A DNA stretch of 64,000 nt, from the NCBI GenBank assembly GCA_014360805.1, contig JACIWU010000001.1, positions 3,327 through 67,326 on the forward strand. Direction: 5' to 3'. Origin of the DNA: Chloroflexota bacterium (GTDB lineage Bacteria; Chloroflexota; Anaerolineae; DTLA01). The notes below the pieces were generated by a model that was given only the letters and a program-made list of their open reading frames with translations, had not been told where the DNA came from and made no database searches. Below, piece after piece: positions 38,913 to 62,164 of this stretch. A program made the translations under genes and the position numbers. How positions within the stretch are numbered: position 1 is the stretch's first letter; the number at the start of each line of letters is the position of its first letter.

Positions 38913-38962
38913 CCCGGGCAGCGGCCCAGTGTCACATTATCGCCCCCTGCGGTGTTATTCTA

Positions 38963-39550: not shown

Positions 39551-39571
39551 AGTTTGCGAGAGGAGGCAGAG

Positions 39572-40711: not shown

Positions 40712-40739
40712 GGTGAGGGGCACTCGCGGGCCACACACC

Positions 40740-40935
40740 TCACCCCCGACCTTCGGCCACCCCCTCTCCGCTCGCGGAGAGGGGGATTGAGGGGTGTGAG
40801 GCCGGCATGGGCACGGGGCTAAACCCCCGCGCTCAAGGAGCAAAGCCCCTTCGGGGCTGCGAATAGCCCGCAGGGCTTCGCCCATTCAGCCCGATGCTTC
40901 AGCGTCGGGCGGGCTTGGGAGAGGGTTAGGGTGAG
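40740..40935. repeat. Composite REP-like element: three successive hairpins homologous to 9612-9720, followed by the 52-nt core of the 4424-4690 tandem repeat and a GAGGG-rich tail
   Basis: Perfect 12-bp palindrome ccccctctccgc/gcggagaggggg (40760-40785). ggggctaaacccc hairpin. agccccttcggggct hairpin. Then agcccgcagggcttcgcccattcagcccgatgcttcagcgtcgggc (40868-40913). Confidence 0.55.
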
Positions 40936-40957
40936 GGTTCCGCCGCGCCCCTGGCCT

Positions 40958-40986
40958 TTGGCATTCTAGGCGCCCTATGGTAAACT
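40958..40986 (+). promoter_or_regulatory. Sigma70-type promoter giving a leaderless or near-leaderless transcript for the ABC-2 exporter operon
   Basis: TTGGCA (40958-40963), 17-nt spacer, TAAACT (40981-40986). ATG at 40993 is only 6 nt after the -10 element and has no RBS. Confidence 0.45.
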
Positions 40987-40992
40987 GACGTT

Positions 40993-41916
40993 ATGACCAC
41001 ATCGCTCGCCATTGAGACCAGTAGCCTCCGCAAGGAGTACGGCCCCAAAGTGGCCGTTGCCGACCTGTCGCTCAGCGTCCAGCGCGGCGAGATATTCGGC
41101 TTCCTCGGCCCCAACGGCGCAGGCAAGACCACCGCCGTGAAGATGCTCCTGGGGCTCATCGCGCCGACCGCGGGCGCGGGGCGAATCCTGGGCCGCCCCC
41201 TCGCCGACATGGAAGTCCGCCGCAAAGTCGGATTCCTCCCTGAGCACTTCCGCTTCTACGACTGGCTTACCGCACGGGAGTTGCTCCACTACCACGGCAG
41301 GCTCCTCGGCATGACGGATGCGGCCTGCCGCGCCCAGATTCCCGAACTCCTGAACATGGTGGGCCTCCTTCGCCACGCTGACCAGCGCATCAAAACCTTC
41401 TCCAAAGGCATGCTCCAGCGCGTGGGACTGGCCCAGGCGTTGCTCAACGACCCCGAACTGGTCTTCCTGGACGAACCCACGTCGGGCCTTGACCCTATCG
41501 GGCGACGCATGGTGCGCGACGTCATCCACCATCTGCGCGAGCGTGCCTGCACCGTGTTCTTGAACTCGCACCTCCTCAGCGAAGTGGAGATCACCTGCGA
41601 CCGCGTGGCGTTCATCCGCGAGGGGGTCGTCGTCCGCACGGCCAGCCTGCGCCAACTAGCACAGGGCGAGACTGCCGTGCGCATCCGCGCTGCGGGCATT
41701 ACGCCCGAGACCCTGGACGGCCTGAACCGTTGGGGCCGCGAGATTCGCGCCGACGGCGAGCACATCCACATGGTCGTGGACGAAGAGGACAGCCTGCCTG
41801 CCATCGCCAACTGGATCGTCGCCAGCGGCGCGCGCCTGTACGCCCTGACGCCCGAACGCATCTCCCTGGAAGACCTGTTCATGCAGATTGTGGGCACTTC
41901 GGGAGAGACCGAATGA
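40993..41916 (+). CDS. ABC transporter ATP-binding protein (ABC-2 type)
   Basis: Walker A (GPNGAGKTT), signature (FSKGMLQRV) and Walker B (LVFLDEPTSGLDP) motifs. Confidence 0.88.
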   Translation: MTTSLAIETSSLRKEYGPKVAVADLSLSVQRGEIFGFLGPNGAGKTTAVKMLLGLIAPTAGAGRILGRPLADMEVRRKVGFLPEHFRFYDWLTARELLHYHGRLLGMTDAACRAQIPELLNMVGLLRHADQRIKTFSKGMLQRVGLAQALLNDPELVFLDEPTSGLDPIGRRMVRDVIHHLRERACTVFLNSHLLSEVEITCDRVAFIREGVVVRTASLRQLAQGETAVRIRAAGITPETLDGLNRWGREIRADGEHIHMVVDEEDSLPAIANWIVASGARLYALTPERISLEDLFMQIVGTSGETE

Positions 41917-42749
41917 ACCGCATCGCGCTCATCGCCCGACTCACGTTCCACGAGGCGCGCCGCCGCAAGATCATGTGGGCGGCCGTCCTACTCGGCCTCG
42001 CCTTCCTCGCCATCTACGCGCTGGGACTCTACTTCCTGCGCGGCGAAATCCTTGAGGGGATGGAGCGGTACCCGCAAGGCACGCTCACCGGCCTCAACAT
42101 GCTCGTCATGATGGCGCTGTATGCGGTGAACTTCCTCATCATCGTGATGACCGTCCTCACATCGGTGGACACCGTCGCAGGCGAAGTGGCCTCTGGCGCC
42201 ATCCACGCCATCGCCGCCAAGCCCATCCGCCGCGCCGAAATCCTCCTGGGCAAGTGGCTGGGATTCGCCGTCATGCTTGTCCTGTACGCGGCCCTCATGA
42301 TCGGCGGGGTCGTGCTGGCCACCCGACTCCTCACCAACTACACGCCCCCGAACGTCCTGCGCGGCAGCCTGCTGATGATCCTGGAAGGATTCATCGTGCT
42401 GCACCTGTCGCTGCTCGGCGGCACGTTCCTGTCCACGCTCGCCAACGGCGTCTTCGTGCTCGGACTGTTCGGCGTCGCCTTCATCGGCGGGTGGATGGAG
42501 CAGTTCGGCGCGATGATGCACAACGAGACCGTCGTGAACATCGGCATCCTCAGCAGCCTCATCATGCCTTCCGAGGCCATCTGGCGCTGGGCGGCGTACC
42601 TGATGCAGCCGCCCATCCTGCGGACGTTCAACGTCAGCCCGTTCGGCAGCAACGCACAACCCAGCCTGGCCATGGTGGTGTACACGCTGGCGTACCTGGC
42701 TGCCGCCCTGGCGTTCGCCATTCGCAACTTCAGCCGCAAGGACCTGTAG
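41913..42749 (+). CDS. ABC-2 family transporter permease
   Basis: 278 aa, 6 TM. ATGA overlap with the ATPase gene. Confidence 0.75.
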   Translation: MNRIALIARLTFHEARRRKIMWAAVLLGLAFLAIYALGLYFLRGEILEGMERYPQGTLTGLNMLVMMALYAVNFLIIVMTVLTSVDTVAGEVASGAIHAIAAKPIRRAEILLGKWLGFAVMLVLYAALMIGGVVLATRLLTNYTPPNVLRGSLLMILEGFIVLHLSLLGGTFLSTLANGVFVLGLFGVAFIGGWMEQFGAMMHNETVVNIGILSSLIMPSEAIWRWAAYLMQPPILRTFNVSPFGSNAQPSLAMVVYTLAYLAAALAFAIRNFSRKDL

Positions 42750-42871
42750 GCTCACGAGGAACCGCGAACCCACGCGAATCTCGCCTTCGCGCCACCCGCG
42801 GTTTGCCTTGCCGCGCCTTTGTGCTACACTTCGCTCGCAAGTCTCGATTCGCGACGCGGAGGCATAACCCC

Positions 42872-43345
42872 ATGTCGGGCATCGTCAGAAACACACGCGC
42901 GGCCTGGCCCATCTGGGCGGCGCGGGTTGCCGTCGCCGTCGTGTGCGCCTGGAACCTGTCGGCGGCGTTCCCGTTCACCCTGGCCCCGGCCCGCTACGCC
43001 CCCGCCTTTGAGGTGATCGGCGCTGGCGGCGAGGCTCTCGTGCGCGGGATGGGCATCCTGTTCCTCATGTGGCAAGTGCCGTTCCTGCCCGTCATCCGGC
43101 ACCCCCGACGCCATCGCGCTTGCTTCCGGGTCATCCTCGCCATGCAAGCCATCGGCCTGGCCGGCGAGACGTGGATGCTGGCGACGCTGGTGCCCGGACA
43201 CGAGGCCCTCCGCGCCACGGGCATGCGGTTCGTCGCCTTTGATGCAGCGGGGTTGGCGCTGCTCGCCGCCGCCTACGCCCTCGCGCGAAGGGCGCCCGCA
43301 GGCCGGGCTTCCGGCCCGCCTACGGGCTCTCGCAGTATGGCCTGA
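42872..43345 (+). CDS. Hypothetical membrane protein (4 TM)
   Basis: 157 aa from ATG 42872 (GGAGG RBS). Hydrophobic helices. Confidence 0.5.
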   Translation: MSGIVRNTRAAWPIWAARVAVAVVCAWNLSAAFPFTLAPARYAPAFEVIGAGGEALVRGMGILFLMWQVPFLPVIRHPRRHRACFRVILAMQAIGLAGETWMLATLVPGHEALRATGMRFVAFDAAGLALLAAAYALARRAPAGRASGPPTGSRSMA

Positions 43346-43371
43346 CGCCGCCTGCCCGTGCAGCCACCCGC

Positions 43372-43400
43372 TTGACGCTTGAACCGATGGAGGCTAAACT
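43372..43400 (+). promoter_or_regulatory. Sigma70-type promoter candidate for the first GT39 gene
   Basis: TTGACG (43372-43377), 17-nt spacer, TAAACT (43395-43400). Confidence 0.45.
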
Positions 43401-43443
43401 CCACACACCGACCCATGCGAATACTGCATATCGGAGGATTCCC

Positions 43444-44958
43444 ATGACAACCGAAACCCGCGATACCCGGCTTGCATGGCTGCGACGGCACCACGAGGTC
43501 ATCCTCCTGGGCATCATCCTCCTCGCCGCCCTCGCCCTGCGCCTGTACGGCCTGGAGCGCAGCAGCCTTTGGCTGGATGAACTGATGCAAGTTCAGGCCG
43601 CGCGCCGCCCGTGGTGGGCCGTGCCAAAGGCCGCCCTGGGACATGATGGCTCAGCGCCTCTAGACTACCTTATCACGCACTTCGTGTACTACCACATCGG
43701 CCGCTCCGAGGGCATCCTGCGCCTGCCGGCCGTGCTGTGGGGCGTCCTCTCCGTCGCAACGGTTTACTTCCTCGGCAAGCGCATGTTTGACAAGACGACG
43801 GGATTCCTGGCCGCCGCGCTCCTCACCATCCTCCCGTCCCACATCTACTACTCGCAAGAGGTGCGCCCGTACAGCCTACCCGCGCTCATGGTGCTGCTGG
43901 CGACCTTCGCGTTCTACCATGCCGTGAGTAGGAACACCCGTGGGGCATGGGCGCTGTACGGGATTACCCTGGTCATTGGGATGTACTCCCACTACTACGT
44001 GGCCATTGTGGGCATTCTCCACGGCGCGTACCTGGTGCTGATGGCGCTGGCGAAGCGCCTGCCGTGGAATCGCCTGCTCCCGTACGTGGTCGCGGCGTGC
44101 GCGGCGGGACTGCTGTTCCTGCCCTGGCCCCTGTCGGACACGATCACGACATCCCAAACTTTTCGCATGCCGGGCGTAGGTACCTTGTTCTCCGCACCGT
44201 TTGTGTCCACAGGGGTGAACTACAAGTTCACCCTGTTACATCCGCTCACGTGGTTTGCAGGGTTCGTGTGGCTTTCCGCACTTGCGGGAGTCGTTCTAGT
44301 TATCACGGGAGGCTCGGCCGCACGGAATAACATAGGGCTCCTTGCTGTGGTCGTTCTATTCGGACTAACAGCGGTTGTCACACTGGACTACACAGCACCC
44401 TACTTCTTCTCCACCCGCCAATTCCTTCCCTTTGCGCCGCTGCTGATACTCCTGGGGTCGGCGGGGGCGCTCGCCATCGTTCGCGCCGTGTCGCGACGCC
44501 TGGCGCCGCACCTGCCCGGCGATGCCGTCGCGGCCGCGGCCGCTGTCGTACTCGTCCTCTTCGCTGCCGGAACTCTTTCCGGCGCGCTGTCGGACATCTA
44601 CCGTTACAAGAAGGAAGACTGGGGAACCGCAAGCCGGTATCTAATCCAGTATGCCCACCAAAACGATGTCATCATCGCTCGCCATCCGTATTTCAAATAC
44701 TACTACGCACCCGAACTAGCCAACCAGATTATCGCGCTCACAGACGTGGGTACAATCCAGACCCAGGCCAACAAACATGCCCGCGTGTGGATCCTGGCGG
44801 AAACCGTGTGGCGCAGATATGGCTACGTGCCCGACGTGGTCGCGTGGATCGAAGCCACAAAACCGCTGGAAGTCAAGAGGTTCAGCGGCCTGCGGCTCTA
44901 CCTCTATTCCGCCACACTCACGCCCCAGCAATTGGAAGCGACTCTGAAGCAGTGGTAA
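43444..44958 (+). CDS. Glycosyltransferase family 39 (PMT/ArnT-like GT-C) membrane protein, paralog 1
   Basis: 504 aa. Multi-TM N-terminal core with a DE motif in the first loop (LWLDELMQV). The N-terminal 240 aa and the final 20 aa are nearly identical to the downstream paralog. Confidence 0.8.
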   Translation: MTTETRDTRLAWLRRHHEVILLGIILLAALALRLYGLERSSLWLDELMQVQAARRPWWAVPKAALGHDGSAPLDYLITHFVYYHIGRSEGILRLPAVLWGVLSVATVYFLGKRMFDKTTGFLAAALLTILPSHIYYSQEVRPYSLPALMVLLATFAFYHAVSRNTRGAWALYGITLVIGMYSHYYVAIVGILHGAYLVLMALAKRLPWNRLLPYVVAACAAGLLFLPWPLSDTITTSQTFRMPGVGTLFSAPFVSTGVNYKFTLLHPLTWFAGFVWLSALAGVVLVITGGSAARNNIGLLAVVVLFGLTAVVTLDYTAPYFFSTRQFLPFAPLLILLGSAGALAIVRAVSRRLAPHLPGDAVAAAAAVVLVLFAAGTLSGALSDIYRYKKEDWGTASRYLIQYAHQNDVIIARHPYFKYYYAPELANQIIALTDVGTIQTQANKHARVWILAETVWRRYGYVPDVVAWIEATKPLEVKRFSGLRLYLYSATLTPQQLEATLKQW

Positions 44959-44992
44959 GATGTATTATGAACCCTTGCAAGGGAGGATTCTC

Positions 44993-46501
44993 ATGACAAC
45001 CGAAACCCGCCATACGCCACTCGCATGGCTGCGACGGCACCACGAGGTCATCCTCCTGGGCGCCATCCTCCTCGCCGCCCTCGCCCTGCGCCTGTACCAA
45101 CTGGAGCAGGACAGTTTCTGGATTGACGAACTGACCCAAATCAACCATTCCCGCGTGCCGCTCCTTCGGGTATTCAAGGCCGCCCTGCTTGATGATGGGA
45201 GCACACCCCTAGACTACCTTGTTACCCACTTCGTGTACTACTACATCGGCCGCTCCGAGGGCATCCTACGCCTGCCGGCCGTGCTCTGGGGCGTCCTCTC
45301 CGTCGCGACGGTTTACTTCCTCGGCAAGCGCATGTTTGACAAGACGACGGGATTCCTGGCCGCTGCGCTCCTCGCCATCCTTCCGTCCCACATCTACTAC
45401 TCGCAAGAGGTGCGCCCGTACAGCCTACCCGCGCTCATGGTGTTGCTGGCGACCTTCGCGTTCTACCATGCCGTGAGTAGGAATACCCGCGGGGCGTGGG
45501 CGCTGTACGGGATCACCCTGGTCATCGGGATGTATTCCCACTACTACGTGGCCATTGTGGGCATTCTTCATGGCGCGTATCTGGCGCTGATGGCGCTGGT
45601 GAAGCGCCTGCCGTGGAACCGCCTGCTCCCGTATGTCATCGCGGCGGGCGCGGCGGGACTGTTGTTCCTGCCCTGGGTACTGGCAGACCAGTTCAGATCG
45701 GGCTATGCGTTCCAGATGCCCAGCAAGAGCGTCTTGCTTTCGGCAGCCTTCGTACCCCGCGGCGGCGATGCCCTCATCGCAAACTTCCGCCCGCTGACCG
45801 TATTCGTGGGTTTCGTCTGGGCCTGTGTGCTGGTGAGCGTGGGCTTGAGCATCAGGGGTGGCTCGGCCGCACGAAATAACATGGGGCTGCTCGCACTGGT
45901 AGTCCTCGGCGGAATGGCCGTGGCAGTCGTACTGGACTACCTGGGTTCCCACTTCTTCCCCACTCGCCATTTCCTTCCCTTTGCGCCGCTGCTGATACTC
46001 CTGGGGGCGGCGGGGGCGGTAGAAGGCATGCGCGGAGCAGCCCGTTCCGTCCGCAGAGAGCCGACGGAGGCCATGAACACCCTCATAGTAGTATTGCTCG
46101 TGGCACTCGCAGCATGGACGCTGGCAACACCGATTTCGGAGGTGTATCGGCACAAGAAGCAGGATTGGCGCGGTGTAGGGCGATATCTTCTTCGTAACGT
46201 CGCACAGGGGGACGTAGTACTCCTCCGCATGACATTTGATGTGGAATTCTACGCACCTGAGTTGAAAAACCATATCCAGCCCCTTCGCAGTCTGAAAACC
46301 ATCCAAGATGCAGCAAAAGCCCATCAGCGTGTGTGGATAGTGGATTGGTCAAGCGCGCTCCGGCGCTACGTGCCCGATGTGGCCCATTGGCTGGAAGCGG
46401 AAAAGCCTCTGCGAATCCGAGGGTTCACCAGCATGGAACTCTACCTCTACTCCGCCACACTCACGCCCCAGCAATTGGAAGCCACCCTGAAGCAGTGGTA
46501 A
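44993..46501 (+). CDS. Glycosyltransferase family 39 (PMT/ArnT-like GT-C) membrane protein, paralog 2
   Basis: 502 aa. FWIDELTQI DE motif. The 5' 750 bp and 3' 80 bp are near-identical to paralog 1, and the middle periplasmic part is divergent. Confidence 0.8.
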   Translation: MTTETRHTPLAWLRRHHEVILLGAILLAALALRLYQLEQDSFWIDELTQINHSRVPLLRVFKAALLDDGSTPLDYLVTHFVYYYIGRSEGILRLPAVLWGVLSVATVYFLGKRMFDKTTGFLAAALLAILPSHIYYSQEVRPYSLPALMVLLATFAFYHAVSRNTRGAWALYGITLVIGMYSHYYVAIVGILHGAYLALMALVKRLPWNRLLPYVIAAGAAGLLFLPWVLADQFRSGYAFQMPSKSVLLSAAFVPRGGDALIANFRPLTVFVGFVWACVLVSVGLSIRGGSAARNNMGLLALVVLGGMAVAVVLDYLGSHFFPTRHFLPFAPLLILLGAAGAVEGMRGAARSVRREPTEAMNTLIVVLLVALAAWTLATPISEVYRHKKQDWRGVGRYLLRNVAQGDVVLLRMTFDVEFYAPELKNHIQPLRSLKTIQDAAKAHQRVWIVDWSSALRRYVPDVAHWLEAEKPLRIRGFTSMELYLYSATLTPQQLEATLKQW

Positions 46502-46502
46502 A

Positions 46503-46514
46503 CCCCTTGCGGGG
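46503..46514 (+). terminator. Short GC hairpin (CCCC TTGC GGGG) immediately after the GT39 paralog 2 stop, a weak terminator candidate
   Basis: Perfect 4-bp stem with a 4-nt loop, 2 nt after the TAA. No U-tract. Confidence 0.25.
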
Positions 46515-46570
46515 GATGCGGCGCGACGGCCGGCCACTCGCGCGCCTGCCCGCGCTGAAAGGAGGCACCT

Positions 46571-47884
46571 ATGGCAACGTCGCCGGCCCGGAAGTCCAAT
46601 CGGGTAACCCTGTCGCTCCTGTTGCTGCTTGCGGCCTTCGGTGCATGGCTGGCCGTGATTGCAGTCCTTCCCCATGCGCAGGCATGGACCCACTGGGTGC
46701 CCATCTCGCCATATGGCTGCATCAACCCTGACATCGCGGCCGATCCCTTCGGGGACGTGTACGCCGTCTGGGAACGCGAGGCCAACGGCGATATCTTTCT
46801 CGCGCGGCGGCACGGCGACGCCTGGCTTTCGCCCGTCAACCTCAGCAACTCGGCGGACGCATCCAGAACACCCCGCGTTGCCGCCGACTTGCGCGGATGG
46901 CTCCACGTCGTCTGGGCCGAAGGCAACGAGGGCCAGTCCGACATCTACTACACATCGTGGAACCGCTCGGCCTGGTCCACGCCCCGCAACCTTTCGCAAT
47001 CCGCTGCCACCGAGTCGCTGGCCCCCGCCATCGCCGTGGACGACGCCAACAGGGTGCACGTAACGTGGGTGGAGAAAGCCGGCACAAACCGCGAGGTTCT
47101 CTACACGTCCGGCCAAGGCGACGGGTGGGCTGCGCCGCTGAATCTGTCCAACACGCCCGGACGGTCAGAGGACCCCGACATCACGCTGGATGCCAACGGG
47201 AATGTGCATGTGGCCTGGCAGGAAGGTATGCCGGCCGCGCCCGAAATCCTTCATCGCTACCTTACGCCGGACGGCTGGGCGCCCGTCGCCAACGTGTCGC
47301 GCAACCCCTCGTTCTCGCGCCATCCGGCGGTCGTCGGAGACCGACAGGGCCGCGTGATTGCCGTGTGGGAAGATAACGCCACCGGCACGTCGGAGTTGCA
47401 TGCGGCCATGTGGGATGTCGGCGAGTGGTCCCCCGCACGGAATGTCGTCATCATGCCCAGCGGCGCCAGTAGCCAAATTGACCTCGTCGTGGATGACGCC
47501 AACGTGCTCCACGTGCTTTGGGACGACCTCGTGGTGGATCAGTGGGAAATCTACTACATCCGGTGGAATGGGGCGGCGTGGTCCGGCGTGCGAGAACTGT
47601 CCCATAACTGGGGGTACTCGTTCTGGCCGGCGCTTGCGTTGGACAGCCGGGGCATCCTTCACGCCGTGTGGACCGACTCGGAGCCGTTTTTCCCGTCCGA
47701 GGGCATTGTGTATTGCTGGCAGGCCGCCGATTCCCCGCTGCCCCTGTATCCATCTGCCACGCCTGCCCCGACAGCCACACCCACGGCGACCGCCACCGCC
47801 GCGCCCACCGCACCGAGCACGCCAACGCCAACTCCCACGCCAACGCCATTCCTCCGCTACTTGCCCATTGTCATGCGCCCGTGA
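46571..47884 (+). CDS. Secreted repeat protein (BNR/sialidase-like beta-propeller repeats) with a C-terminal PT-rich tail
   Basis: Signal/TM helix. At least five repeats of about 45 aa with a conserved P.NLS(N/Q)(S/T)...VHV.W.E motif. C-terminus ...PTATPTATATAAPTAPSTPTPTPTPTPFLRYLPIVMRP. Confidence 0.7.
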   Translation: MATSPARKSNRVTLSLLLLLAAFGAWLAVIAVLPHAQAWTHWVPISPYGCINPDIAADPFGDVYAVWEREANGDIFLARRHGDAWLSPVNLSNSADASRTPRVAADLRGWLHVVWAEGNEGQSDIYYTSWNRSAWSTPRNLSQSAATESLAPAIAVDDANRVHVTWVEKAGTNREVLYTSGQGDGWAAPLNLSNTPGRSEDPDITLDANGNVHVAWQEGMPAAPEILHRYLTPDGWAPVANVSRNPSFSRHPAVVGDRQGRVIAVWEDNATGTSELHAAMWDVGEWSPARNVVIMPSGASSQIDLVVDDANVLHVLWDDLVVDQWEIYYIRWNGAAWSGVRELSHNWGYSFWPALALDSRGILHAVWTDSEPFFPSEGIVYCWQAADSPLPLYPSATPAPTATPTATATAAPTAPSTPTPTPTPTPFLRYLPIVMRP

Positions 47885-47905: not shown

Positions 47906-49753
47906 TTACGGCAGCAGAAGCATAGCCTTCGCAAACGTGTCCGGAAACTCGGGCAGAATCGTCAACTCCAGGTAGTCCGCGCGGGCTGCGATGGCACGCG
48001 CGCGCTCCCGCTCGTCCAGCGACACCAGCGCCAGCCGCGCGCCCACCGCCGCCGCATTCCCCACCTGCTGCACCTTAGAGGCCGGCACCGGCGGGAGAAG
48101 CCCGATTTCCAGAATGCTGTCCACACTCAAGTACGTGCCGAACGCGCCTGCCAGGATCACCGCATCCACATCGGAAACGGCGACGCCCGCCTCGGCCATC
48201 AGCAGTTCAATGCCCGCGCGAATGGCCCCCTTCGCCAGTTGAATCGCGCTCACGTCTTTGCGAGAGAGCGCGACCGCTCGCCCGTGCCCCGACTCGTCCG
48301 GCGTCGCCAGCACGAATTCAGGCCCGTCGGCCCCTTTGTGGACGCGGGGGTGATCCAGCATCTTGCCCGCAGCCGTGAGCACGCCAGCCCGCCGCAGCGC
48401 CGCCACCGCGTCCAGCACGCCAGACCCGCATATCCCGACGGGCGGCGCGTTGTCCACCGTCTGCCAGTGCACCTGGCCGTCGTCCAGGCTCACCCACTCT
48501 ATGGCGCCCGAGGCCGCGCGCATCCCGTCGCGAATATGCGCACCCTCAAAGGCCGGCCCCGACGCCGTGGAGCAACTGATGAGTCGCGACGGCGTCTTCA
48601 GCACCAGTTCCGTATTGGTGCCGATGTCAAGGCCCAGCACGATGCCTTCCATGTCCGGTATGCGCGTGCCCAGGAGCATCGCCACATGATCGGCGCCCAC
48701 AAACCCCGCCACGTTGGGTAGGAGATGCACATAGGCCCCCTCCGCGATGTCCAGGCCCACGTCGCGCGCCTTCACATCCAGCGCGGCGCTCTCGGTGGGG
48801 ACGTAGGGAGCCGCGCCCAGTTGGCTCACGGGCAGGCCCAGGAACAGGTGGTGCATCGCCGTATTGCCCACGACGACGGCTTCCACGACTTCACGGGGCG
48901 TTCGCCCCACCCGCCGACACAGCGCGCCCGCCAAATCCCCGATGGCACGCACCACAACCTGCTGCAACTCCCGCGCCTGCTGCTCCCCCTGCATGGCGTA
49001 GCCGATGCGCGCCATCACGTCCTCGCCAAAGGCAATCTGCGGGTTCATGACGCCGTCGGCGGCCAGCGAACGCCCGCTCTCCAAATCCACCAGGTGCGCG
49101 GCGATCTTGGTCGTGCCCAGGTCAACCGCAAGTCCCAGCGGCCGCTCATCAGGCGGGCCGAAGCGCACCACTTCCGCCTTGCCCCCCACGCGGCGAACAT
49201 GCGCCACGCCTCGCCACCCCTGCGCCCGCAGGCGATCCGCCAATGGCCGCAACGCCGCGAAGTCCACCGCAACATCGGCGAAGCCGCACGTCCCGCGCAA
49301 GGCGTCGCGCAGACGAACGGCATCGGCGCGGAGGTCGGTCAGGGCGGCGGGCGGCAGTTCCACAGCGCAGGCCACAACCGGCGGGTTCGGCGTAACCTGG
49401 ACGGCCTGGCCCTCCACCTGTAGGCGCTGCGTGGTGCTGAGGGAATCGGCGGGGACGTACACCTTCACGCCCCCGCGAACGCGCGTCTGGCACGCCAGTC
49501 GCATTCCCTGCGCAACGGCGTCAGCGCCCAGTCTGCGAATCTCGGTTTCGGATGGCGACGAGACATCGCCGGCCATCACGCGCACGCGACAGCGCCCGCA
49601 CGACCCGGTTCCGCCGCAGATCGCGGCAAGCGCGACACCCGCGCGCCTGGCCGCGTCCAGCAGTGTCTCGCCCGAAGCGCACTCCGATCGCAGTCCAAGC
49701 GGCTCAAAGTCAATCCAGCATGTGCCCACCACGAGCCTCCTACGAACGACCAC
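47906..49753 (-). CDS. RACo-like ASKHA-fold ATPase with an N-terminal plant-type [2Fe-2S] ferredoxin domain (DUF4445 family)
   Basis: N-terminal Cys motif CGGTGSCGRCRV...C. ASKHA motifs (LAVDLGTT, LDIGTNTE, GICGSG). 615 aa. GTG start overlapping the upstream gene by 14 nt. Confidence 0.78.
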   Translation of the reverse strand: MVVRRRLVVGTCWIDFEPLGLRSECASGETLLDAARRAGVALAAICGGTGSCGRCRVRVMAGDVSSPSETEIRRLGADAVAQGMRLACQTRVRGGVKVYVPADSLSTTQRLQVEGQAVQVTPNPPVVACAVELPPAALTDLRADAVRLRDALRGTCGFADVAVDFAALRPLADRLRAQGWRGVAHVRRVGGKAEVVRFGPPDERPLGLAVDLGTTKIAAHLVDLESGRSLAADGVMNPQIAFGEDVMARIGYAMQGEQQARELQQVVVRAIGDLAGALCRRVGRTPREVVEAVVVGNTAMHHLFLGLPVSQLGAAPYVPTESAALDVKARDVGLDIAEGAYVHLLPNVAGFVGADHVAMLLGTRIPDMEGIVLGLDIGTNTELVLKTPSRLISCSTASGPAFEGAHIRDGMRAASGAIEWVSLDDGQVHWQTVDNAPPVGICGSGVLDAVAALRRAGVLTAAGKMLDHPRVHKGADGPEFVLATPDESGHGRAVALSRKDVSAIQLAKGAIRAGIELLMAEAGVAVSDVDAVILAGAFGTYLSVDSILEIGLLPPVPASKVQQVGNAAAVGARLALVSLDERERARAIAARADYLELTILPEFPDTFAKAMLLLP

Positions 49754-50303
49754 GGCGGCGCTGGCTCAGCCCCACGAGCGCCTGCACGCCAAACGCGATC
49801 ACCCCACCGGCCAGAGCCGTGCCCAATTGCGGCCAGCGCATCATGTTGGCAAGGGCTTGCGGAATGGCGACGGTAGCCACCTCGCCGCCGACGGCCACCC
49901 GCAGCGGCCATGCGACGAGAACCCCGACCGCCGCGTACAGCCAGGCGAACTTCACCACCGCCGCCGCCACCAGCGCCGCGATGCGGCTGCGCCCCCGCAA
50001 CAGGCGGAACACGCTCACAAAGGCCGCGTTGCCCACGGCGATGAACGGAATCATGACCCACAGCGGCAGGGGCAGAATGCCCCGCAGCGCTGCGCCCATC
50101 GGCGTAACCATGCCCACCACAATCGCCTGACTCAACCCACACCACTCCAGCGTCAACAGCAACAGCGCGTTGACCAGCGGGCCGGTAAGGTACTGCGGCA
50201 ACCCCATGTTGGTGATGGCGAGGGCCGCCGCCAGGGCAAGCGCCAACTTCGCCGCGGCCATCCAGGCCGCACTCCGATTCCAAACGAGCGACTTGGTCTC
50301 CAT
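49740..50303 (-). CDS. Small polytopic membrane protein, possibly an ECF-type S-component / Gx-transporter-like protein
   Basis: 187 aa with about 6 TM helices. GGGGAG RBS before ATG 50303. Confidence 0.45.
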   Translation of the reverse strand: METKSLVWNRSAAWMAAAKLALALAAALAITNMGLPQYLTGPLVNALLLLTLEWCGLSQAIVVGMVTPMGAALRGILPLPLWVMIPFIAVGNAAFVSVFRLLRGRSRIAALVAAAVVKFAWLYAAVGVLVAWPLRVAVGGEVATVAIPQALANMMRWPQLGTALAGGVIAFGVQALVGLSQRRRGRS

Positions 50304-50351
50304 CTTACGTCTCCCCAAAGATATGCATGCAACTGCGGCATGCCGCCGGTG

Positions 50352-51527
50352 CTAGATCGTCTCCAGTGTAACCGATTTGTTCCTTTGCTCCAACTGGCGG
50401 ATCAACTCCTTGACGTAGAGCATCCGCATGGACTCGCCCCGAATCACATCCGCCACCTGATTGGGGTTGATGGCTGTGCCCACCAGAAAATGAATCTCGT
50501 CCGCGGAGAGGAGAATTCGCGCGAGGCGGCTGGCCGCATCCTCGCCTGGAGGCACGTCGTTCGCCGTCTGCGCGTGCTCCAGCAGGCTCACCGTCTGCCC
50601 CAGCGTGAGAATGCCCTCGGTAACCAAATCCACCCCGTCCAGCCGCGCTGTGGGGGGCGTGCCGCGCGCCCGAGGCGCGCCGCCCTTGCGTTTGCTCGGC
50701 GGCACCCAGTCCACCCGGAGTTCTTGCCCCAACACGCGCGCCGCGATCTGGGCGGTCGTCCCCCCGCAGATGACCTTCGCCCCGCGCGCCTTCATCAGTT
50801 TCGCGACGGCGGCCTCATCCTGCGAGCGGTCGGCGGGTGGCCCGGTCCACACATTCGCGACGACGGTCCGCCGAACGCGCATGACCACCGCCGTACTGTC
50901 GTCGCCGGGCTTCCCTTCGTACAGCCGCAGGGCCGTGTTGGACAGGGCGCGCGCCAGGCTATGCGCGTCCCCGGCCGTCTGCGCCCAACGTCGAACCGAC
51001 ACGGCGATATTCTGCCAGCCCCAGCCCAGGCGGTACAACCCGCCTACCCCCGCATGCACGTAGCCATCGCTGACCATCACCATGTAGTCGCCTTCTTGCA
51101 GAAGGAAATGCGCTTCGTGAATCTTGCGCCCCTCCACCTCACGCTCCACGCGGGGCACGTCCCATATCTTCCCCTCCCGAATCAGAATCAGGGGCGGGGT
51201 ATCGTACTCCACGAGATAGGCGTCGCGCCCTCGTTGCACCAGCAGCACCGCGAAGGTCGCGTAGGCCAGTTTCCTCACGCTGCACTCGGGCAGCGTGGCG
51301 ACCAGCGTGCTGATGACCTCCTCCACCGACGCGCCGCGCTGGAACATGGAGGCAGCGATCTCCGCCGTGAGCGTGGCCATGATGTTCGCCTTCACCCCGC
51401 TGCCAAGGCCGTCCGAAAGCACAACAATGAAGGACTGCGGCGTCGTGGCCACGCGCACGCAGTCGCCACAGAGTTCCTCCCCGTGCTTGGCCAGGCTGTT
51501 CCACGCGATCTCAACAAACAGCCTCAT
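50352..51527 (-). CDS. SpoIIE/PP2C-family serine phosphatase
   Basis: PPM-type metal-binding Asp motifs (CGDCV, VLSDGLGSG, MVMVSDG). 391 aa. ATGA overlap with the upstream hydS-like gene. Confidence 0.8.
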   Translation of the reverse strand: MRLFVEIAWNSLAKHGEELCGDCVRVATTPQSFIVVLSDGLGSGVKANIMATLTAEIAASMFQRGASVEEVISTLVATLPECSVRKLAYATFAVLLVQRGRDAYLVEYDTPPLILIREGKIWDVPRVEREVEGRKIHEAHFLLQEGDYMVMVSDGYVHAGVGGLYRLGWGWQNIAVSVRRWAQTAGDAHSLARALSNTALRLYEGKPGDDSTAVVMRVRRTVVANVWTGPPADRSQDEAAVAKLMKARGAKVICGGTTAQIAARVLGQELRVDWVPPSKRKGGAPRARGTPPTARLDGVDLVTEGILTLGQTVSLLEHAQTANDVPPGEDAASRLARILLSADEIHFLVGTAINPNQVADVIRGESMRMLYVKELIRQLEQRNKSVTLETI

Positions 51528-53242
51528 GGCTCGGACTCTTCCTCCAACAACTTGGCGAGCCGCGACAGCATGATCTTCGCGTCCGCCGTCGTCTCGCCCA
51601 GCAATTGCGCGATCTCGTGGGCCACGCGCATCTGCTTGATGACCACCTCTTGGGTTCGCTGGAGCGTTTCCTCGCGAATGCGTTCCAACTGGGCTCGCTG
51701 CTGCTCGTGCTCGGTAACATCCCGCAGGATGCCCACGATAAGGTTCTGGTCTTTCACGGCGACGATAGTCTGCTCCACGATGAGGCCGTTGAGGGCAAGG
51801 CGCTGGCGGATGATGGGCTGGCCGGTTCGGCGCACCGACTCAAACCCCTGCAATACGACGGGCGGGGCGACCTCGTCCAGCGGGTGCCCCATGACCTGCG
51901 GGAGCGAACACCGTAGCATCGCCTCTGCCGAGGGCGACATGTCTTGGATGTGGAGCCGCGTGTCCACCGTAATCACCGGGTCCTGCGTTACAGCCATGAT
52001 CACCTGGCGGAGCGACTCGGCCCGCTTGCGCGTGTACGGGATGCACATCGTAGCCTCTGCAAGCCCGCGCAAGGTAGCAATGGCTTTGTCTCGGCAGGTG
52101 GGATAGCCGCACGCGCCACAGTTCAGTTCGTCTTCGGGCGTGTACTTGTCCACCCGATGCAGGACTTCGCGGATTTGCTCCTCGGTAAAATCCGGCAGCG
52201 GAACGCTTTTGTCCCGATAGGTCCGAGTTAGCGGCGGCCACTCCGACCGAGACGGCAGCGGTTGGGGCTGGCGCCGCGCCGCATACTCCAGCACCCGCTG
52301 TCGCGCCTGGTACACGCCGATGTCCTTGCCCATCCCCGGGCCGTTGATGCACCCGCCCTCGCAGGCCATGAGTTCCACGAGCGACGCCCGCAGGGTTCCG
52401 GCGCGAATGCTCTGGAGCACGTCTTCACAGGCAGATAGCCCCGATGTCGTTACGATTTCGCTCGCAAGAATATCGGTGTCCAGATTCGCCGTGCCCACCA
52501 GGCCCCCCTCCACAGGGAACACGCGGGCATTGGCGCGGGGCACGTGCTCGTGCAAATCGGGGGGCGCAGGCATGGCAACCGCATCCGATTGCAGCCATTC
52601 CGACAGTTCCTCGTAGGTCAGCGCCGCGTCAATCACGCCCTCAACCGCCTCTTCGCGGATTTCGCCCTTCTTGGCGAAACACGGCCCGATGAAGACGAGA
52701 AAGGCCTCCTCGCCATACCGCTGGCGCAGCCAACGCCCGTGCGCGATCATGGGCGAAACCACAGGGGCCAGATGCGGGATCAGATCGGGGTAGTAAATCT
52801 CAATCAGATTCACCACCACAGGGCAGGACGAGGTAATCACCGGCCACCGACTGGGTTCGGCTTCCATCACTTCGCGGTGCGCATGGCCCACCATCTCCGC
52901 GCCGAAGGCCGTCTCGTGCGCCGCCGAGAACCCCAACGCGCGCAGAGCCTGCTCCATCTGCGCGAAGGACTGGATGCCGAAATAGGCCGGCGCCGAGGGC
53001 GCAACGCTGGCGACGAGCGTTCGGCCTGCGGCCAGCGCCTCGCGCACCGCCGGACGGTCGTCGCGCACGCTTTTGGCGCCCTGCGGGCACGCGCGCACGC
53101 ACGAGCCGCACACAATGCACAACTCCGCCACGACCTGCGCCTGCCCGCTCTGCACTCGGACAGCCTTCACGGGGCAAGTCCGTACGCATCGGTAACAGTC
53201 GCGGCAACGCGCGACATTTGTGCTCACTACGGAATGCGTCAT
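51524..53242 (-). CDS. Sensory [FeFe]-hydrogenase-like protein (HydS-like, group C): N-terminal ferredoxin domain, H-cluster domain, extra 4-Cys motif and a C-terminal PAS domain
   Basis: CRDCYRCVRTCP and CIVCGSCVRACP 4Fe-4S motifs. H-cluster motifs TSSCPVV (L1), GPCFAKKGE (L2) and ELMACEGGCINGPG (L3). CGACGYPTCRDKA...C motif. PAS-like C-terminus. Confidence 0.8.
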   Translation of the reverse strand: MTHSVVSTNVARCRDCYRCVRTCPVKAVRVQSGQAQVVAELCIVCGSCVRACPQGAKSVRDDRPAVREALAAGRTLVASVAPSAPAYFGIQSFAQMEQALRALGFSAAHETAFGAEMVGHAHREVMEAEPSRWPVITSSCPVVVNLIEIYYPDLIPHLAPVVSPMIAHGRWLRQRYGEEAFLVFIGPCFAKKGEIREEAVEGVIDAALTYEELSEWLQSDAVAMPAPPDLHEHVPRANARVFPVEGGLVGTANLDTDILASEIVTTSGLSACEDVLQSIRAGTLRASLVELMACEGGCINGPGMGKDIGVYQARQRVLEYAARRQPQPLPSRSEWPPLTRTYRDKSVPLPDFTEEQIREVLHRVDKYTPEDELNCGACGYPTCRDKAIATLRGLAEATMCIPYTRKRAESLRQVIMAVTQDPVITVDTRLHIQDMSPSAEAMLRCSLPQVMGHPLDEVAPPVVLQGFESVRRTGQPIIRQRLALNGLIVEQTIVAVKDQNLIVGILRDVTEHEQQRAQLERIREETLQRTQEVVIKQMRVAHEIAQLLGETTADAKIMLSRLAKLLEEESEP

Positions 53243-53502
53243 GGTTTCTTCTCACGCTCCAGACGAGGCAGAATCTCCTTCTCAAAGAACGACTCCGCCT
53301 CCAGAAAATGAATCTCCCGATATTGCTGGTCTCCCACCTTCACCGAGATGCCCTTGGAACACTGCTCCATGCAAAACGCGCCCACCAGCCGCACGCGGTC
53401 TTCCAACCCCGCCTTCTGAATCAGCCGCTCCAGCGCGTCCGCAAACTCGTCCGAACCCCGCACGCTGCAAGAACTTCCAACGCAGATCGTAACCGTAATC
53501 AT
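53239..53502 (-). CDS. Thioredoxin-like [2Fe-2S] ferredoxin (NuoE/HoxE-like)
   Basis: 87 aa. Cys pattern C7-x5-C13 ... C44-x3-C48. GGGAGG RBS. ATGA overlap with the hydS-like start. Confidence 0.6.
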   Translation of the reverse strand: MITVTICVGSSCSVRGSDEFADALERLIQKAGLEDRVRLVGAFCMEQCSKGISVKVGDQQYREIHFLEAESFFEKEILPRLEREKKP

Positions 53503-53851
53503 CGCAACCTCCCTGGTGCCTGATGGGCAGAGCATCACTGCGACGGATGGACAATTATGTCAACACCACTTTCGCACCCCACACGGACCAGCGCCCACCT
53601 ACTGTAGCACAAACCGGCGCAGTTGCCAAATCCATTCGTGAAATCTGGAACGAGCCAAGGCGCAGATCAGGTTCCCGCACCCGACATTGCCGAACCCCGG
53701 TGGCTAACGATAGAGCCGCCCACCCACCCGTAGGTCGGATTTCCATACCCGACTGGCCTACCCCCCGCGATTGCGCCCCCGTGGCGTATCCGCTATACTG
53801 TATGTGTCCGATACTCCCTGTCAAATCTTGCGACCACAAGGAGGTTTGCTC

Positions 53852-54625
53852 ATGACGCTCAAGGGAAAACGCGTGGCTGTATTGGCCGAAGAGATGTACC
53901 AAGAACTGGAACTCTGGTATCCGACGCTCCGAATGCGCGAGGCCGGAGCCGAGGTAAAAATCGTCGGCACAGGCAGTAGCCCCACGTATGCGTCCAAACA
54001 CGGGTACCCAGTTACCGTGGATGTGCCGGCAGACCAGGTGTCCGCCGCCGACTTTGACGCGGTCATTATCCCTGGGGGCTACGCGCCCGACCGCATGCGC
54101 CGCTACCCTGCTGTCCTGAAACTCGTGCGTGAGGCGTTTGAGCAGGGCAAGGTCATCGCCGCCATCTGCCACGCGGGTTGGGTGCCGATCTCCGCGGGCA
54201 TTCTCAAAGGGCGGCGGGTAACCAGTTTCTTCGCGATCAAGGACGACATGATCAACGCAGGCGCCACCTGGGTTGACGAGCCGGTCGTCCGCGACGGGAA
54301 CCTCATCACGTCGCGCATGCCCGACGACCTTCCCTACTTCTGTAGCGCCATCATTCAGGCGCTGGGCGGCGGGGAGGTGAGCGCCGACATCGTGGAGACG
54401 ACGACAGCGAAAGAGGCCCTGGCCATCGCCGTCCGTGCCGAGGAACAGGCCGCCGCGTTCTACAAGGCCGCCGTCAAACGTACCCAGGACCCCGAGGCCA
54501 AGGCCATGTTTGAGGAACTGGCCAGGGAAGAACTCGGACACAAGGCGCGGCTGGAGAAAGAATACGTCCACCTCAGCGGCGATCCAAACTGGGCGCGCTA
54601 CGTGCTGTGGAGCAATCTCCCCTAG
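53852..54625 (+). CDS. DJ-1/PfpI-family protein fused to a C-terminal half-ferritin/rubrerythrin-like helical segment
   Basis: PfpI nucleophile elbow AICHAG. C-terminal AFYKAAV...EELAREELGHKARLEKEY (ExxH). AAGGAGG RBS. Confidence 0.72.
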   Translation: MTLKGKRVAVLAEEMYQELELWYPTLRMREAGAEVKIVGTGSSPTYASKHGYPVTVDVPADQVSAADFDAVIIPGGYAPDRMRRYPAVLKLVREAFEQGKVIAAICHAGWVPISAGILKGRRVTSFFAIKDDMINAGATWVDEPVVRDGNLITSRMPDDLPYFCSAIIQALGGGEVSADIVETTTAKEALAIAVRAEEQAAAFYKAAVKRTQDPEAKAMFEELAREELGHKARLEKEYVHLSGDPNWARYVLWSNLP

Positions 54626-60854: not shown

Positions 60855-60874
60855 ACCGCCTCCCCACTCGCCCG

Positions 60875-62143: not shown

Positions 62144-62164
62144 CGTCTGCACCCGCAATTGGGC

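What the first reader, a model, noticed from the sequence alone, without database searches (positions are those of the whole stretch)
47906..50303. RACo-like ASKHA/[2Fe-2S] ATPase and a small 6-TM membrane protein embedded in the hydS-PP2C operon
Downstream of the phosphatase, with only a 33-nt gap and then a 14-nt overlap, lie an ECF-S/Gx-transporter-like membrane protein and a 615-aa ASKHA ATPase with an N-terminal plant-type ferredoxin domain. That ATPase matches the fold of reductive activators of corrinoid enzymes (RACo). Pairing an ATP-dependent reductive activator with a sensory hydrogenase and a PP2C phosphatase is not an arrangement I know to be described. One hypothesis is ATP-driven low-potential reduction or reactivation of the sensor's clusters, with a membrane-anchored partner.
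Basis: inference. Interest (0 to 1): 0.7.

Follow-up and report, generated by a model that had tools for sequence, protein, structure and literature searches.

The report
Corrinoid activase beside hydrogen-sensor operon
The two genes are real, but the ATPase is most likely an ordinary vitamin-B12-enzyme reactivator that landed behind a hydrogen-sensor operon in one narrow bacterial lineage. The small membrane protein is the real conserved companion of iron-hydrogenase genes, across several bacterial phyla.

Summary
On the minus strand lies a five-gene, operon-like cluster:
- an 87-aa thioredoxin-like [2Fe-2S] protein
- a HydS-type sensory [FeFe]-hydrogenase
- a 391-aa SpoIIE/PP2C phosphatase
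- a 187-aa six-helix membrane protein
- a 607-aa RACo/RACE-type ASKHA ATPase

The ATPase follows the membrane gene only in one shallow Anaerolineae clade (RACo identity 72% or more). Its nearest outgroups (63-66% identity) sit in corrinoid/pterin methyltransferase operons. More distant orthologues (55-62%) stand alone. The [2Fe-2S] and ATP-binding motifs do not differ between these groups. The best reading is a normal corrinoid reductive activase carried at the 3' end of the operon.

Interest is moderate to low for the original claim. The HymD-like link is a worthwhile lead.

The parts
53601..53629 (-). Sigma-70-like promoter match (TTGGCA-17-TACAGT) in the 268-nt divergent intergenic region upstream of the small ORF. 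Candidate operon promoter.
   Evidence: Consensus scan only. Three matches were found against 0.8 expected in shuffles. Function not shown.
53239..53502 (-). 87-aa thioredoxin-like [2Fe-2S] ferredoxin (HydC/NuoE-like fragment, four Cys). First gene of the cluster. Its stop overlaps the hydS start by 4 nt.
   Evidence: Pfam 2Fe-2S_thioredx at 9.2e-05, below the cut-off. ATG at 53502 preceded by GGGAGG. A homologue sits immediately upstream of HydS in most Anaerolineae loci.
51524..53242 (-). HydS-type (group C, sensory) [FeFe]-hydrogenase, 572 aa. It has two N-terminal [4Fe-4S] motifs, an H-domain, a C-terminal 4-Cys 'FeS' domain and a PAS domain.
   Evidence: Pfam Fe_hyd_lg_C 4.4e-54, FeS 4.1e-09, Fer4 and PAS_4. 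The H-cluster Cys motifs TSSCP, GPCFAKK and MACEGGCING can be read in the translation. Below every NCBIfam catalytic-hydrogenase cut-off.
50352..51527 (-). SpoIIE/PP2C-family Ser/Thr phosphatase, 391 aa, with an unassigned ~170-aa C-terminal region. Its start overlaps the hydS stop by 4 nt.
   Evidence: Pfam SpoIIE 4.4e-15 over residues 31-219. PDB PP2C matches cover residues 3-221 only. A 391-aa homologue follows HydS in 24 of 80 loci.
50325..50343 (-). Short hairpin (GCATGC-N7-GCATGC) in the PP2C-membrane spacer. Judged not to be a functional terminator.
   Evidence: Flagged by the lenient scan, which found 3 sites against 3.8 expected in shuffles. The 3' arm is mutated without compensation in L091 and L092. 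The spacer is only 22 nt in L012.
49740..50303 (-). HymD-like membrane protein, 187 aa, with six TM helices and an ECF S-component fold. Conserved companion of [FeFe]-hydrogenase genes.
47906..49729 (-). RACE-type (RACo-like) ATPase, 607 aa: plant-type [2Fe-2S] domain, linker, middle domain and ASKHA domain. Last gene of the cluster. It starts 10 nt after the membrane gene's stop, and GGAGG overlaps that stop codon.
   Evidence: Pfam. 3ZYY E 3.3e-111. NCBIfam AcsV 413 bits, below the 800 cut-off. Start codon read. Phylogeny and motifs.

Best explanation
The cluster is an H2/redox-sensing operon of the known HydS-PP2C type. Two further genes ride on it, and each has a different history.

(1) The 607-aa protein is a bona fide RACE-type reductive activase. 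Its [2Fe-2S] domain takes a low-potential electron. ATP binding and hydrolysis in the ASKHA core then drive reduction of an inactive Co(II) corrinoid protein back to Co(I). Its client is most likely a methyl-tetrahydrofolate/corrinoid methyltransferase system encoded elsewhere in the genome. In one shallow Anaerolineae lineage the gene came to lie 10-14 nt behind the last gene of the hydS operon, so it is probably co-transcribed with it. Its chemistry has nothing to do with HydS.

(2) The 187-aa membrane protein is a HymD-like protein with an ECF S-component fold. It belongs to the hydrogenase gene set itself, because it travels with H-cluster proteins, both catalytic and sensory, across phyla. 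Most likely it binds or imports a small molecule that the hydrogenase module needs. A less likely role is tethering the module to the membrane.

Shown here: gene identities, folds, motifs, gene order and its phylogenetic distribution.
Inferred: co-transcription, the corrinoid client, the relocation event, and any ligand of the membrane protein.
For: RACo identity:
- All four RACo Pfam domains plus Fer2.
- Full-length match to RACo 3ZYY and to the RACo chain of the 4C1N complex.
- Intact Cys motif (CGGTGSCGRC...LACQ) and ASKHA motifs (DLGTT, DIGTNTE, AGAFG).

Shallow linkage:
- RACo follows the membrane gene only in L001/2, L011-14, L091-93 and L095 (RACo identity 72% or more).
- In the NJ tree these sequences form a single clade.
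- Outgroup contexts:
  - L097 (65%): URO-D, a B12-binding corrinoid protein and Pterin_bind.
  - L098 (66%): Pterin_bind.
  - L100 (63%): Met_synt_B12 and Pterin_bind.
  - L096 (62%) and L003-L006 (55-58%): stand-alone.
- L099 (69%), nested inside the clade, has an FCD regulator upstream instead of the membrane gene.
- All six functional motifs examined are identical between the hydS-linked and corrinoid-operon-linked proteins.
- RACE ATPases are described as interacting directly with the corrinoid (PMC7317905).

Membrane protein:
- Fold.
- 68 of 80 loci have an H-domain gene; 67 lie within 2.5 kb, 37 within 300 nt, and 65 are on the same strand.
- Neighbours confirmed by Pfam are HydA with HydB/Nuo51, HydA alone, or a HydS-histidine-kinase fusion.
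- Gene-order variants keep it inside the hydrogenase cluster: L036/L063 run Rex-small-HydS-MEM-PP2C, and L028 runs small-HydS-PP2C-NuoE-like-HydB-HydA-MEM.
- Genes beyond the hydrogenase set are unrelated housekeeping genes.
Against: - No corrinoid protein or methyltransferase lies in the 64-kb window, so the proposed client is unseen.
- The 10-14-nt spacing with a Shine-Dalgarno sequence at the membrane gene's stop is kept across RACo divergence down to about 72%. That could reflect selection for co-expression rather than neutral hitch-hiking.
- The NJ tree is a quick distance tree without support values.
- For the membrane protein, no ligand, riboswitch or ECF T/A genes were seen, and no sequence-level match to any solved S component exists. 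Transport is therefore inferred from fold alone.
- Five of 80 loci with ample flanks have no hydrogenase nearby.
Confidence: 0.62

Rival explanations
1. One reading: in this clade the RACE-type ATPase has been recruited to the sensor. It would use ATP to push a low-potential electron into the HydS Fe-S or H-cluster chain, or into the small [2Fe-2S] protein, to reset or reactivate the sensor, with the membrane protein acting as an anchor.
For: - Probable co-transcription: tight spacing and no conserved terminator.
- The gene order is kept in at least eight distinct relatives.
- No corrinoid client lies in the window.
- Other ASKHA ATPases (archerases, DCCP-R) do reduce Fe-S clients (PMC7317905).
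Against: - The linkage traces to a single shallow evolutionary event.
- About 20 other Anaerolineae species run HydS, PP2C and the membrane gene without RACo.
- Sister lineages are embedded in corrinoid methyltransferase operons, and none of the six motifs examined differs.
- RACE-type client recognition is described as corrinoid-dependent.
- The ASKHA ATPases that reduce Fe-S clients belong to a different family, carrying a bridging [4Fe-4S] cluster.
Confidence: 0.07
2. Regulatory coupling only. The ATPase still acts on corrinoid proteins, but its position in the operon is adaptive. Its expression would be tied to the H2/redox-sensing operon because corrinoid reactivation needs low-potential electrons that are available when H2 or reduced ferredoxin is present.
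For: - The tight 3' placement is conserved across the clade.
- The corrinoid identity of the protein is supported.
- HydS-PP2C modules are implicated in redox and fermentation control (PMC5707799, PMC11837493).
Against: - There are no expression data.
- The arrangement is absent from most Anaerolineae that have both gene sets.
- It was lost at least once within the clade (L099).
Confidence: 0.2
3. The membrane protein and the ATPase form their own functional pair: a solitary, BtuM- or CbrT-like S component that binds a corrinoid, which the ATPase then reduces.
For: - The two genes lie 10-14 nt apart in every member of the clade.
- In L001, L013 and L014 a 186-408-nt insertion separates this pair from PP2C.
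Against: - The membrane family is tied to hydrogenase genes in 67 of 80 loci, and to RACo in only one shallow clade.
- RibU-type S components score much higher than BtuM (15.8 against 9.9).
- The family has no invariant Cys or His to ligate cobalt.
- No B12 riboswitch was found.
Confidence: 0.04
4. The membrane protein is only a passive membrane anchor, or a relic of a lost neighbouring HydABC cluster, with no ligand and no role in sensing.
For: - From my own recollection of the original Hym description (not checked here), HymD was proposed as a possible membrane anchor.
- Clusters such as L028 and L030 show HydS-PP2C and HydABC side by side with the membrane gene at the end. Loss of HydABC would leave the window's arrangement.
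Against: - Six polar residues stay invariant across sequences only 34-38% identical (Q37, N45, N92, K118, Q159, T162); from the model's helix boundaries most of them fall within helices. The S-component fold is fully retained. Both argue for a binding site.
- The gene is kept tightly linked to HydS-PP2C in more than 20 species, and sits between HydS and PP2C in L036/L063.
Confidence: 0.2

Closest known systems
RACo of Carboxydothermus hydrogenoformans (PDB 3ZYY; complex with CoFeSP 4C1N) and the RACE-type ATPases (AcsV, O-demethylase activating enzymes, RamA)
   Same: - Same four-domain architecture: plant-type [2Fe-2S] domain, linker, middle domain and ASKHA domain.
- Full-length alignment at E 3.3e-111.
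- Conserved Cys and nucleotide-binding motifs.
- Close relatives (63-66% identity) lie in corrinoid/pterin methyltransferase operons.
   Different: - Below the NCBIfam AcsV equivalog cut-off (413 against 800 bits) and far below RamA (133 against 500), so it is a separate Chloroflexota subfamily.
- No acs/CODH or corrinoid genes lie nearby.
- Here it is the terminal gene of a hydS-PP2C operon.
HymD, the fourth gene of Hym-type [FeFe]-hydrogenase clusters, annotated '[Fe] hydrogenase, HymD subunit' in Dehalococcoides and Heliobacterium (PMC8516407, PMC2887804). My own recollection, not checked here, is that it was first named in Eubacterium acidaminophilum hymABCD.
   Same: - A small (~170-190 aa), six-helix membrane protein encoded next to the hydrogenase genes.
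- Dehalococcoidia homologues sit directly after HydB-HydA.
- NCBI still names some family members 'iron hydrogenase'.
   Different: - Here the partner is a sensory HydS plus a PP2C, not a catalytic HydABC.
- The Anaerolineae subfamily carries an extra beta-hairpin between helices 5 and 6.
- Sequence identity to the original HymD could not be tested, because no reference sequence was available.
ECF-transporter S components, especially RibU (PDB 3P5N, 5KBW)
   Same: - Ala-rich helix 1 with AxxxA-type spacing.
- Homologues give full-length but sub-threshold PF12822 alignments.
   Different: - Only 14-15% identity.
- No hit to any solved S component with a family profile.
- The window protein has no hit on the Pfam ECF_trnsprt model, and its homologues score below that model's cut-off.
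- No FMN or other riboswitch.
- No EcfT/EcfA genes seen nearby.
- Substrate unknown.
HydS-PP2C sensory modules of Firmicutes (Ruminococcus albus HydS; Thermoanaerobacterium HfsB-HfsC)
   Same: A PAS-containing [FeFe]-hydrogenase homologue is followed by a serine phosphatase. It is thought to regulate hydrogenase and fermentation genes (PMC11837493, PMC5707799).
   Different: - Those clusters contain a catalytic hydrogenase (HfsD/HydA2) and HfsA; they have no RACo.
- The window has no catalytic hydrogenase, kinase or Rex.
- Rex and the 87-aa ferredoxin accompany the module in other Anaerolineae.
Archerases and DCCP-R: ASKHA ATPases with a bridging [4Fe-4S] cluster that reduce Fe-S clients
   Different: They are a different ASKHA family: homodimers with a [4Fe-4S] cluster. 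They lack the RACo middle and linker domains and the plant-type [2Fe-2S] domain. The window protein shows none of their features.

Membership tests
RACE-type reductive activase (RACo family) | N-terminal plant-type [2Fe-2S] ferredoxin domain with four Cys ligands | tested here: met
   Pfam Fer2 8e-14 over residues 20-92. The motifs CGGTGSCGRC and LACQ are conserved across the clade.
RACE-type reductive activase (RACo family) | RACo linker, middle and C-terminal ASKHA domains in order, with full-length similarity to the solved RACo | tested here: met
   Pfam PF17650, PF17651 and PF14574, all above their cut-offs. 3ZYY aligned over query residues 18-603, E 3.3e-111.
RACE-type reductive activase (RACo family) | ASKHA nucleotide-binding motifs (phosphate-1, phosphate-2, adenosine) | tested here: met
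   DLGTTK, DIGTNTE and AGAFGTY are present, and identical to those of the corrinoid-operon-linked relatives.
RACE-type reductive activase (RACo family) | Genomic association with a corrinoid protein or methyltransferase | tested here: not met
   None in the 64-kb window. Met in the nearest outgroups L097, L098 and L100.
RACE-type reductive activase (RACo family) | ATP-dependent reduction of Co(II) to Co(I) in a corrinoid protein | not testable with these tools
   Needs biochemistry.
AcsV (NCBIfam NF040756) / RamA (TIGR04270) equivalogs | Score above the curated whole-protein cut-off | tested here: not met
   AcsV 412.9 bits against a cut-off of 800. RamA 133.1 bits against 500. It is a family member but not either named orthologue.
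ECF transporter S component (PF12822 and relatives) | Six-helix S-component fold | tested here: met
   [not shown]
ECF transporter S component (PF12822 and relatives) | Sequence match above the Pfam gathering score | tested here: not met
   The window protein has no hit at E 0.01 or better. Homologues score 11-26.5 bits against a cut-off of 30.7. A family profile finds no PDB S component.
ECF transporter S component (PF12822 and relatives) | Works with the EcfT/EcfAA' module, or shows substrate binding as a solitary S component | not tested
   No T/A genes were noticed next to it in the loci inspected. The genomes were not searched. Binding needs experiments.
HymD-type hydrogenase-associated membrane protein | Small polytopic membrane protein encoded within or next to an [FeFe]-hydrogenase gene cluster | tested here: met
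   67 of 80 loci have an H-domain gene within 2.5 kb; 65 are on the same strand. Neighbours verified by Pfam.
HymD-type hydrogenase-associated membrane protein | Sequence homology to the originally named HymD | not tested
   No reference sequence was available in the tools. The only support is source names, 'iron hydrogenase', and the annotations cited in PMC8516407 and PMC2887804.
Group C sensory [FeFe]-hydrogenase (HydS) with PP2C output | H-domain with H-cluster Cys ligands, plus a C-terminal 4-Cys domain and PAS, followed by a PP2C gene | tested here: met
   Pfam Fe_hyd_lg_C, FeS and PAS_4, with SpoIIE in the next gene. Motifs read in the translation. H2 sensing itself was not tested.

The most novel reading that the evidence does not exclude
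In this Anaerolineae clade a RACE-type ATPase has been co-opted away from corrinoid clients. It would deliver ATP-energised electrons to the H2-sensing module: HydS, its small [2Fe-2S] partner, or a cofactor held by the HymD-like membrane protein. That would make it the first RACE-type ATPase with a non-corrinoid client, and it would give sensory hydrogenases an active reset mechanism.

A milder reading is much more probable, at about 0.5. The HymD-like ECF-S-fold protein would be an obligate small-molecule-handling partner of H-cluster proteins in several phyla. That function has never been characterised.
Probability: 0.07. Interest if true: 0.75.

Novelty: new variant of a known kind. Interest (0 to 1): 0.38.

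Why it matters
If the main reading is right, the RACo gene itself is ordinary, and the pairing of a reductive activator with a sensory hydrogenase should not be treated as a new system.

The lasting value is in the membrane protein. A protein with a vitamin-transporter fold accompanies [FeFe]-hydrogenase genes from Patescibacteria to Chloroflexota, whether they are catalytic or sensory, and it has never been studied. Finding its ligand or its binding partner could reveal either of two things. One is a missing requirement of H-cluster enzymes, such as cofactor supply or membrane localisation. The other is a missing input or output of HydS-PP2C signalling, whose mechanism and targets are still unknown.

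Tried and rejected
- **HfsD as an ASKHA/DUF4445 protein.** I recalled that Thermoanaerobacterium HfsD was one, which would have made the arrangement already known. The papers show HfsD is a catalytic hydrogenase. Rejected.
- **Literature searches.** Searches for DUF4445 with hydrogenase, ECF S component with hydrogenase, and hymABCD or DET0148 found nothing relevant beyond two annotation tables. One broad PP2C search was uninformative.
- **Metagenome scan with the single RACo protein.** It returned only near-identical loci and one distant one. Synteny depth was therefore worked out from individual contig look-ups instead.
- **Riboswitch hunt, to reveal a ligand for the membrane protein.** It found only tRNAs in seven loci and nothing in the window.
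- **Search for HydE/F/G maturases next to the membrane gene.** The neighbours are unrelated housekeeping genes.
- **NCBIfam on nine family members.** No model matched.
- **Terminator between PP2C and the membrane gene.** The hairpin is not conserved.
- **The PP2C C-terminal domain** was not modelled, because only a single-sequence prediction was allowed.
Full report
**1. What is there**

The window is about 65% G+C. Its closest relatives are Anaerolineae/Chloroflexota metagenome-assembled genomes. Five tightly packed genes lie on the minus strand between 53502 and 47906:

- An 87-aa thioredoxin-like [2Fe-2S] protein at 53239-53502. It has an ATG preceded by GGGAGG, and a weak Pfam 2Fe-2S_thioredx match.
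- A 572-aa HydS-type [FeFe]-hydrogenase homologue at 51524-53242, with Fe_hyd_lg_C 4.4e-54, a C-terminal 4-Cys FeS domain and PAS. The H-cluster motifs TSSCP, GPCFAKK and MACEGGCING are readable in the translation.
- A 391-aa SpoIIE/PP2C phosphatase at 50352-51527.
- A 187-aa membrane protein at 49740-50303.
- A RACo-like ATPase at 47906-49729.

The first three genes overlap by 4 nt each. A 48-nt spacer follows, then a 10-nt spacer.

Homologues of the ATPase are 607 aa, and a GGAGG sequence overlapping the membrane gene's stop codon precedes a GTG at 49729. The "14-nt overlap" therefore comes from taking the longest ORF. The membrane gene starts at ATG 50303.

A promoter-like site lies upstream of the small ORF. 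The only hairpin in the PP2C-membrane spacer loses its pairing, without compensating changes, in strains that are 97% identical. The spacer is only 22 nt in another relative. Terminator-like sites are no more frequent than in shuffled sequence. Co-transcription of all five genes is therefore plausible, though it has not been shown.

**2. The ATPase**

The protein matches all four RACo Pfam domains plus Fer2. It aligns from residue 18 to 603 with the crystallised RACo 3ZYY at E 3.3e-111. It keeps the [2Fe-2S] cysteines and the ASKHA nucleotide-binding motifs. It scores below the NCBIfam cut-offs for AcsV and RamA. It is thus a member of the RACE-type family but belongs to neither named orthologue group.

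**3. How deep the linkage to hydS goes**

The order HydS-PP2C-membrane-RACo recurs in these loci:

| Locus | RACo identity to the window |
|---|---|
| L001/L002 | 88% |
| L011 | 97% |
| L012 | 81% |
| L013 | 87% |
| L014 | 83% |
| L091-L093 | 97-98% |
| L095 | 72% |

Outside this group the linkage is gone:

- L099 (69%) has an FCD-family regulator upstream.
- L098 (66%) is followed by a Pterin_bind methyltransferase.
- L097 (65%) sits between a B12-binding corrinoid protein and a Pterin_bind methyltransferase, with a URO-D methyltransferase in the same cluster.
- L100 (63%) directly follows a Met_synt_B12 protein, with a divergent Pterin_bind gene.
- L096 (62%) and the many orthologues at 55-58% identity, including one in a complete 4.9-Mb genome, stand alone among housekeeping genes.

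A neighbour-joining tree puts all hydS-linked proteins in one clade, and the nearest outgroups are the corrinoid-operon proteins. The six functional motifs I compared are identical between the two groups.

The linkage therefore traces to one recent event inside a subfamily whose usual context is corrinoid/methyl-tetrahydrofolate methyl transfer. RACE-type ATPases are described as forming their complex through the oxidised cobalt and direct contact with the corrinoid (PMC7317905). I found no corrinoid-related gene in the window: none among about 37 ORFs scanned with Pfam, and none by tblastn with the L097 proteins. The presumed client must be encoded elsewhere.

**4. The membrane protein**

The protein has no Pfam or NCBIfam hit. 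Its family is small at high identity, with 69 clusters that are mostly Anaerolineae.

A scan of one genome per GTDB species with the family alignment confirmed 429 hits, and the best 80 loci were fetched. I compared these by tblastn with the window proteins and with hydrogenase genes taken from the loci themselves:

| Measure (of 80 loci) | Count |
|---|---|
| Carry an [FeFe] H-domain gene | 68 |
| H-domain gene within 2.5 kb of the membrane gene | 67 |
| H-domain gene within 300 nt | 37 |
| H-domain gene on the same strand | 65 |
| Carry the 391-aa PP2C (all Chloroflexota-type) | 24 |
| Carry a HydB/Nuo51 gene | 34 |
| Carry RACo | 4 |

Of the 12 loci without a hydrogenase hit, seven are cut short by a contig end.

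Pfam confirmed the neighbours. In Patescibacteria, Dehalococcoidia and bins labelled as Gammaproteobacteria they are HydA (Fer2_4/Fer4/Fe_hyd_lg_C/Fe_hyd_SSU), with or without HydB. In Leptospiraceae the neighbour is a HydS-histidine-kinase fusion.

Variant orders keep the gene inside the hydrogenase cluster:

- L036/L063: Rex-small-HydS-MEM-PP2C
- L028: small-HydS-PP2C-NuoE-like-HydB-HydA-MEM
- L027: HydB-HydA-MEM

Genes beyond the hydrogenase set are unrelated. No riboswitch precedes the gene.

NCBI names members of one and the same 90% cluster either "iron hydrogenase" or "ECF transporter S component". Published annotation tables list a "[Fe] hydrogenase, HymD subunit" next to hymC (PMC8516407, PMC2887804). 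From my own recollection, HymD was named in the Eubacterium acidaminophilum hymABCD cluster as a six-helix membrane protein of unknown role. I could not verify that paper here, and I could not test sequence identity with the original HymD.

**5. Mechanism**

My best reading has confidence of about 0.6. The core is a known kind of H2/redox sensor:

- HydS senses H2 at an H-cluster.
- PAS-mediated control then acts on a PP2C phosphatase, whose target is unknown.

This follows what has been inferred for R. albus HydS and Thermoanaerobacterium HfsB/HfsC. None of it was tested here.

The HymD-like protein belongs to the hydrogenase gene set. It retains the S-component fold. Its polar residues Q37, N45, N92, K118, Q159 and T162 are invariant among homologues that are only 34-38% identical. 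From the model's helix boundaries, most of these fall within helices. I therefore favour small-molecule binding or uptake over a passive anchor. The ligand is unknown. FMN for HydB cannot be the whole story, because HydA-only and HydS-only clusters also keep the gene.

The RACo gene is an ordinary corrinoid activase that came to lie at the operon's 3' end in one lineage. Co-expression with the sensor may or may not be adaptive.

A corrinoid-binding pair formed by the S component and the activase gets about 0.04.

**6. Novelty and score**

- The RACo protein is a new member of a known family.
- The HydS-PP2C pair is known.
- The HymD-like protein exists in old annotation but is uncharacterised. 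I found no description, in the searchable literature, of its S-component fold, of its reach across phyla, or of its tight link to sensory HydS-PP2C.

Overall this is a new variant of a known kind. Interest is 0.38: low for the original claim, moderate for the lead on the membrane protein.

Noticed in passing
window 53239-53502 (-): An 87-aa thioredoxin-like [2Fe-2S] ORF (CxxxC...CxxxC) overlaps the hydS start by 4 nt. A homologue precedes HydS in most Anaerolineae loci, and lies after Rex in L008/L016.
   Followed up: partly
window 50352-51527 (-), residues ~220-391: The C-terminal ~170 aa of the PP2C has no Pfam or PDB match. The protein is 391 aa in every HydS-linked locus where its length was reported. 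This may be the domain that receives the HydS signal.
   Followed up: no
window 53771-54625 (+): A DJ-1/PfpI-rubrerythrin fusion protein is encoded divergently from the hydS operon. The same divergent neighbour, followed by an ABC transporter, occurs in L095. It may be an oxidative-stress partner of the oxygen-sensitive sensor.
   Followed up: no
L001 7021-7425; L013 6727-7076; L014 735-920: In three relatives the PP2C-membrane spacer carries a 186-408-nt insertion with inverted ends (GTCATTGCGAGGG...CGCTCGCAATGAC). It looks like a small repeat or mobile element. It separates the membrane-RACo pair from HydS-PP2C in those relatives.
   Followed up: partly
L036 7013-11715; L063 7082-11737; L028 2345-10495: Alternative layouts of the hydrogenase cluster occur in other Chloroflexota. 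One is Rex-small-HydS-membrane-PP2C. Another is a combined sensory and catalytic cluster, small-HydS-PP2C-NuoE-like-HydB-HydA-membrane.
   Followed up: partly
L048 9860-12409; L055; L057: In Leptospiraceae the membrane-protein homologue is convergent with, and 8-10 nt from, a HydS fused to a histidine kinase (HisKA + HATPase_c). This is a different sensory output next to the same membrane family.
   Followed up: partly
window 38316-47884 versus L001 9852-14087: Relative to L001, the window has three extra genes between the conserved ABC-transporter/anti-sigma/ECF-sigma/MerR-response-regulator block and the RACo gene. They are two PMT_2 glycosyltransferases (43372-46501) and a BNR-like secreted protein (46571-47884). 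The operon's 3' flank is therefore a rearrangement-prone spot.
   Followed up: no
window 59583-63013 (-): A LarA-like lactate racemase, an iron-containing alcohol dehydrogenase and a DeoC/LacD aldolase lie in a row. A radical-SAM protein (57478-58374) and an amidohydrolase lie next to them. No link to the finding is apparent.
   Followed up: no
L100 2312-4851: A 230-aa stand-alone Met_synt_B12 (methionine-synthase activation-domain) protein ends at the start codon of the RACo homologue, and a Pterin_bind gene lies divergently. This hints that this Chloroflexota RACo subfamily serves a split MetH-like system.
   Followed up: no
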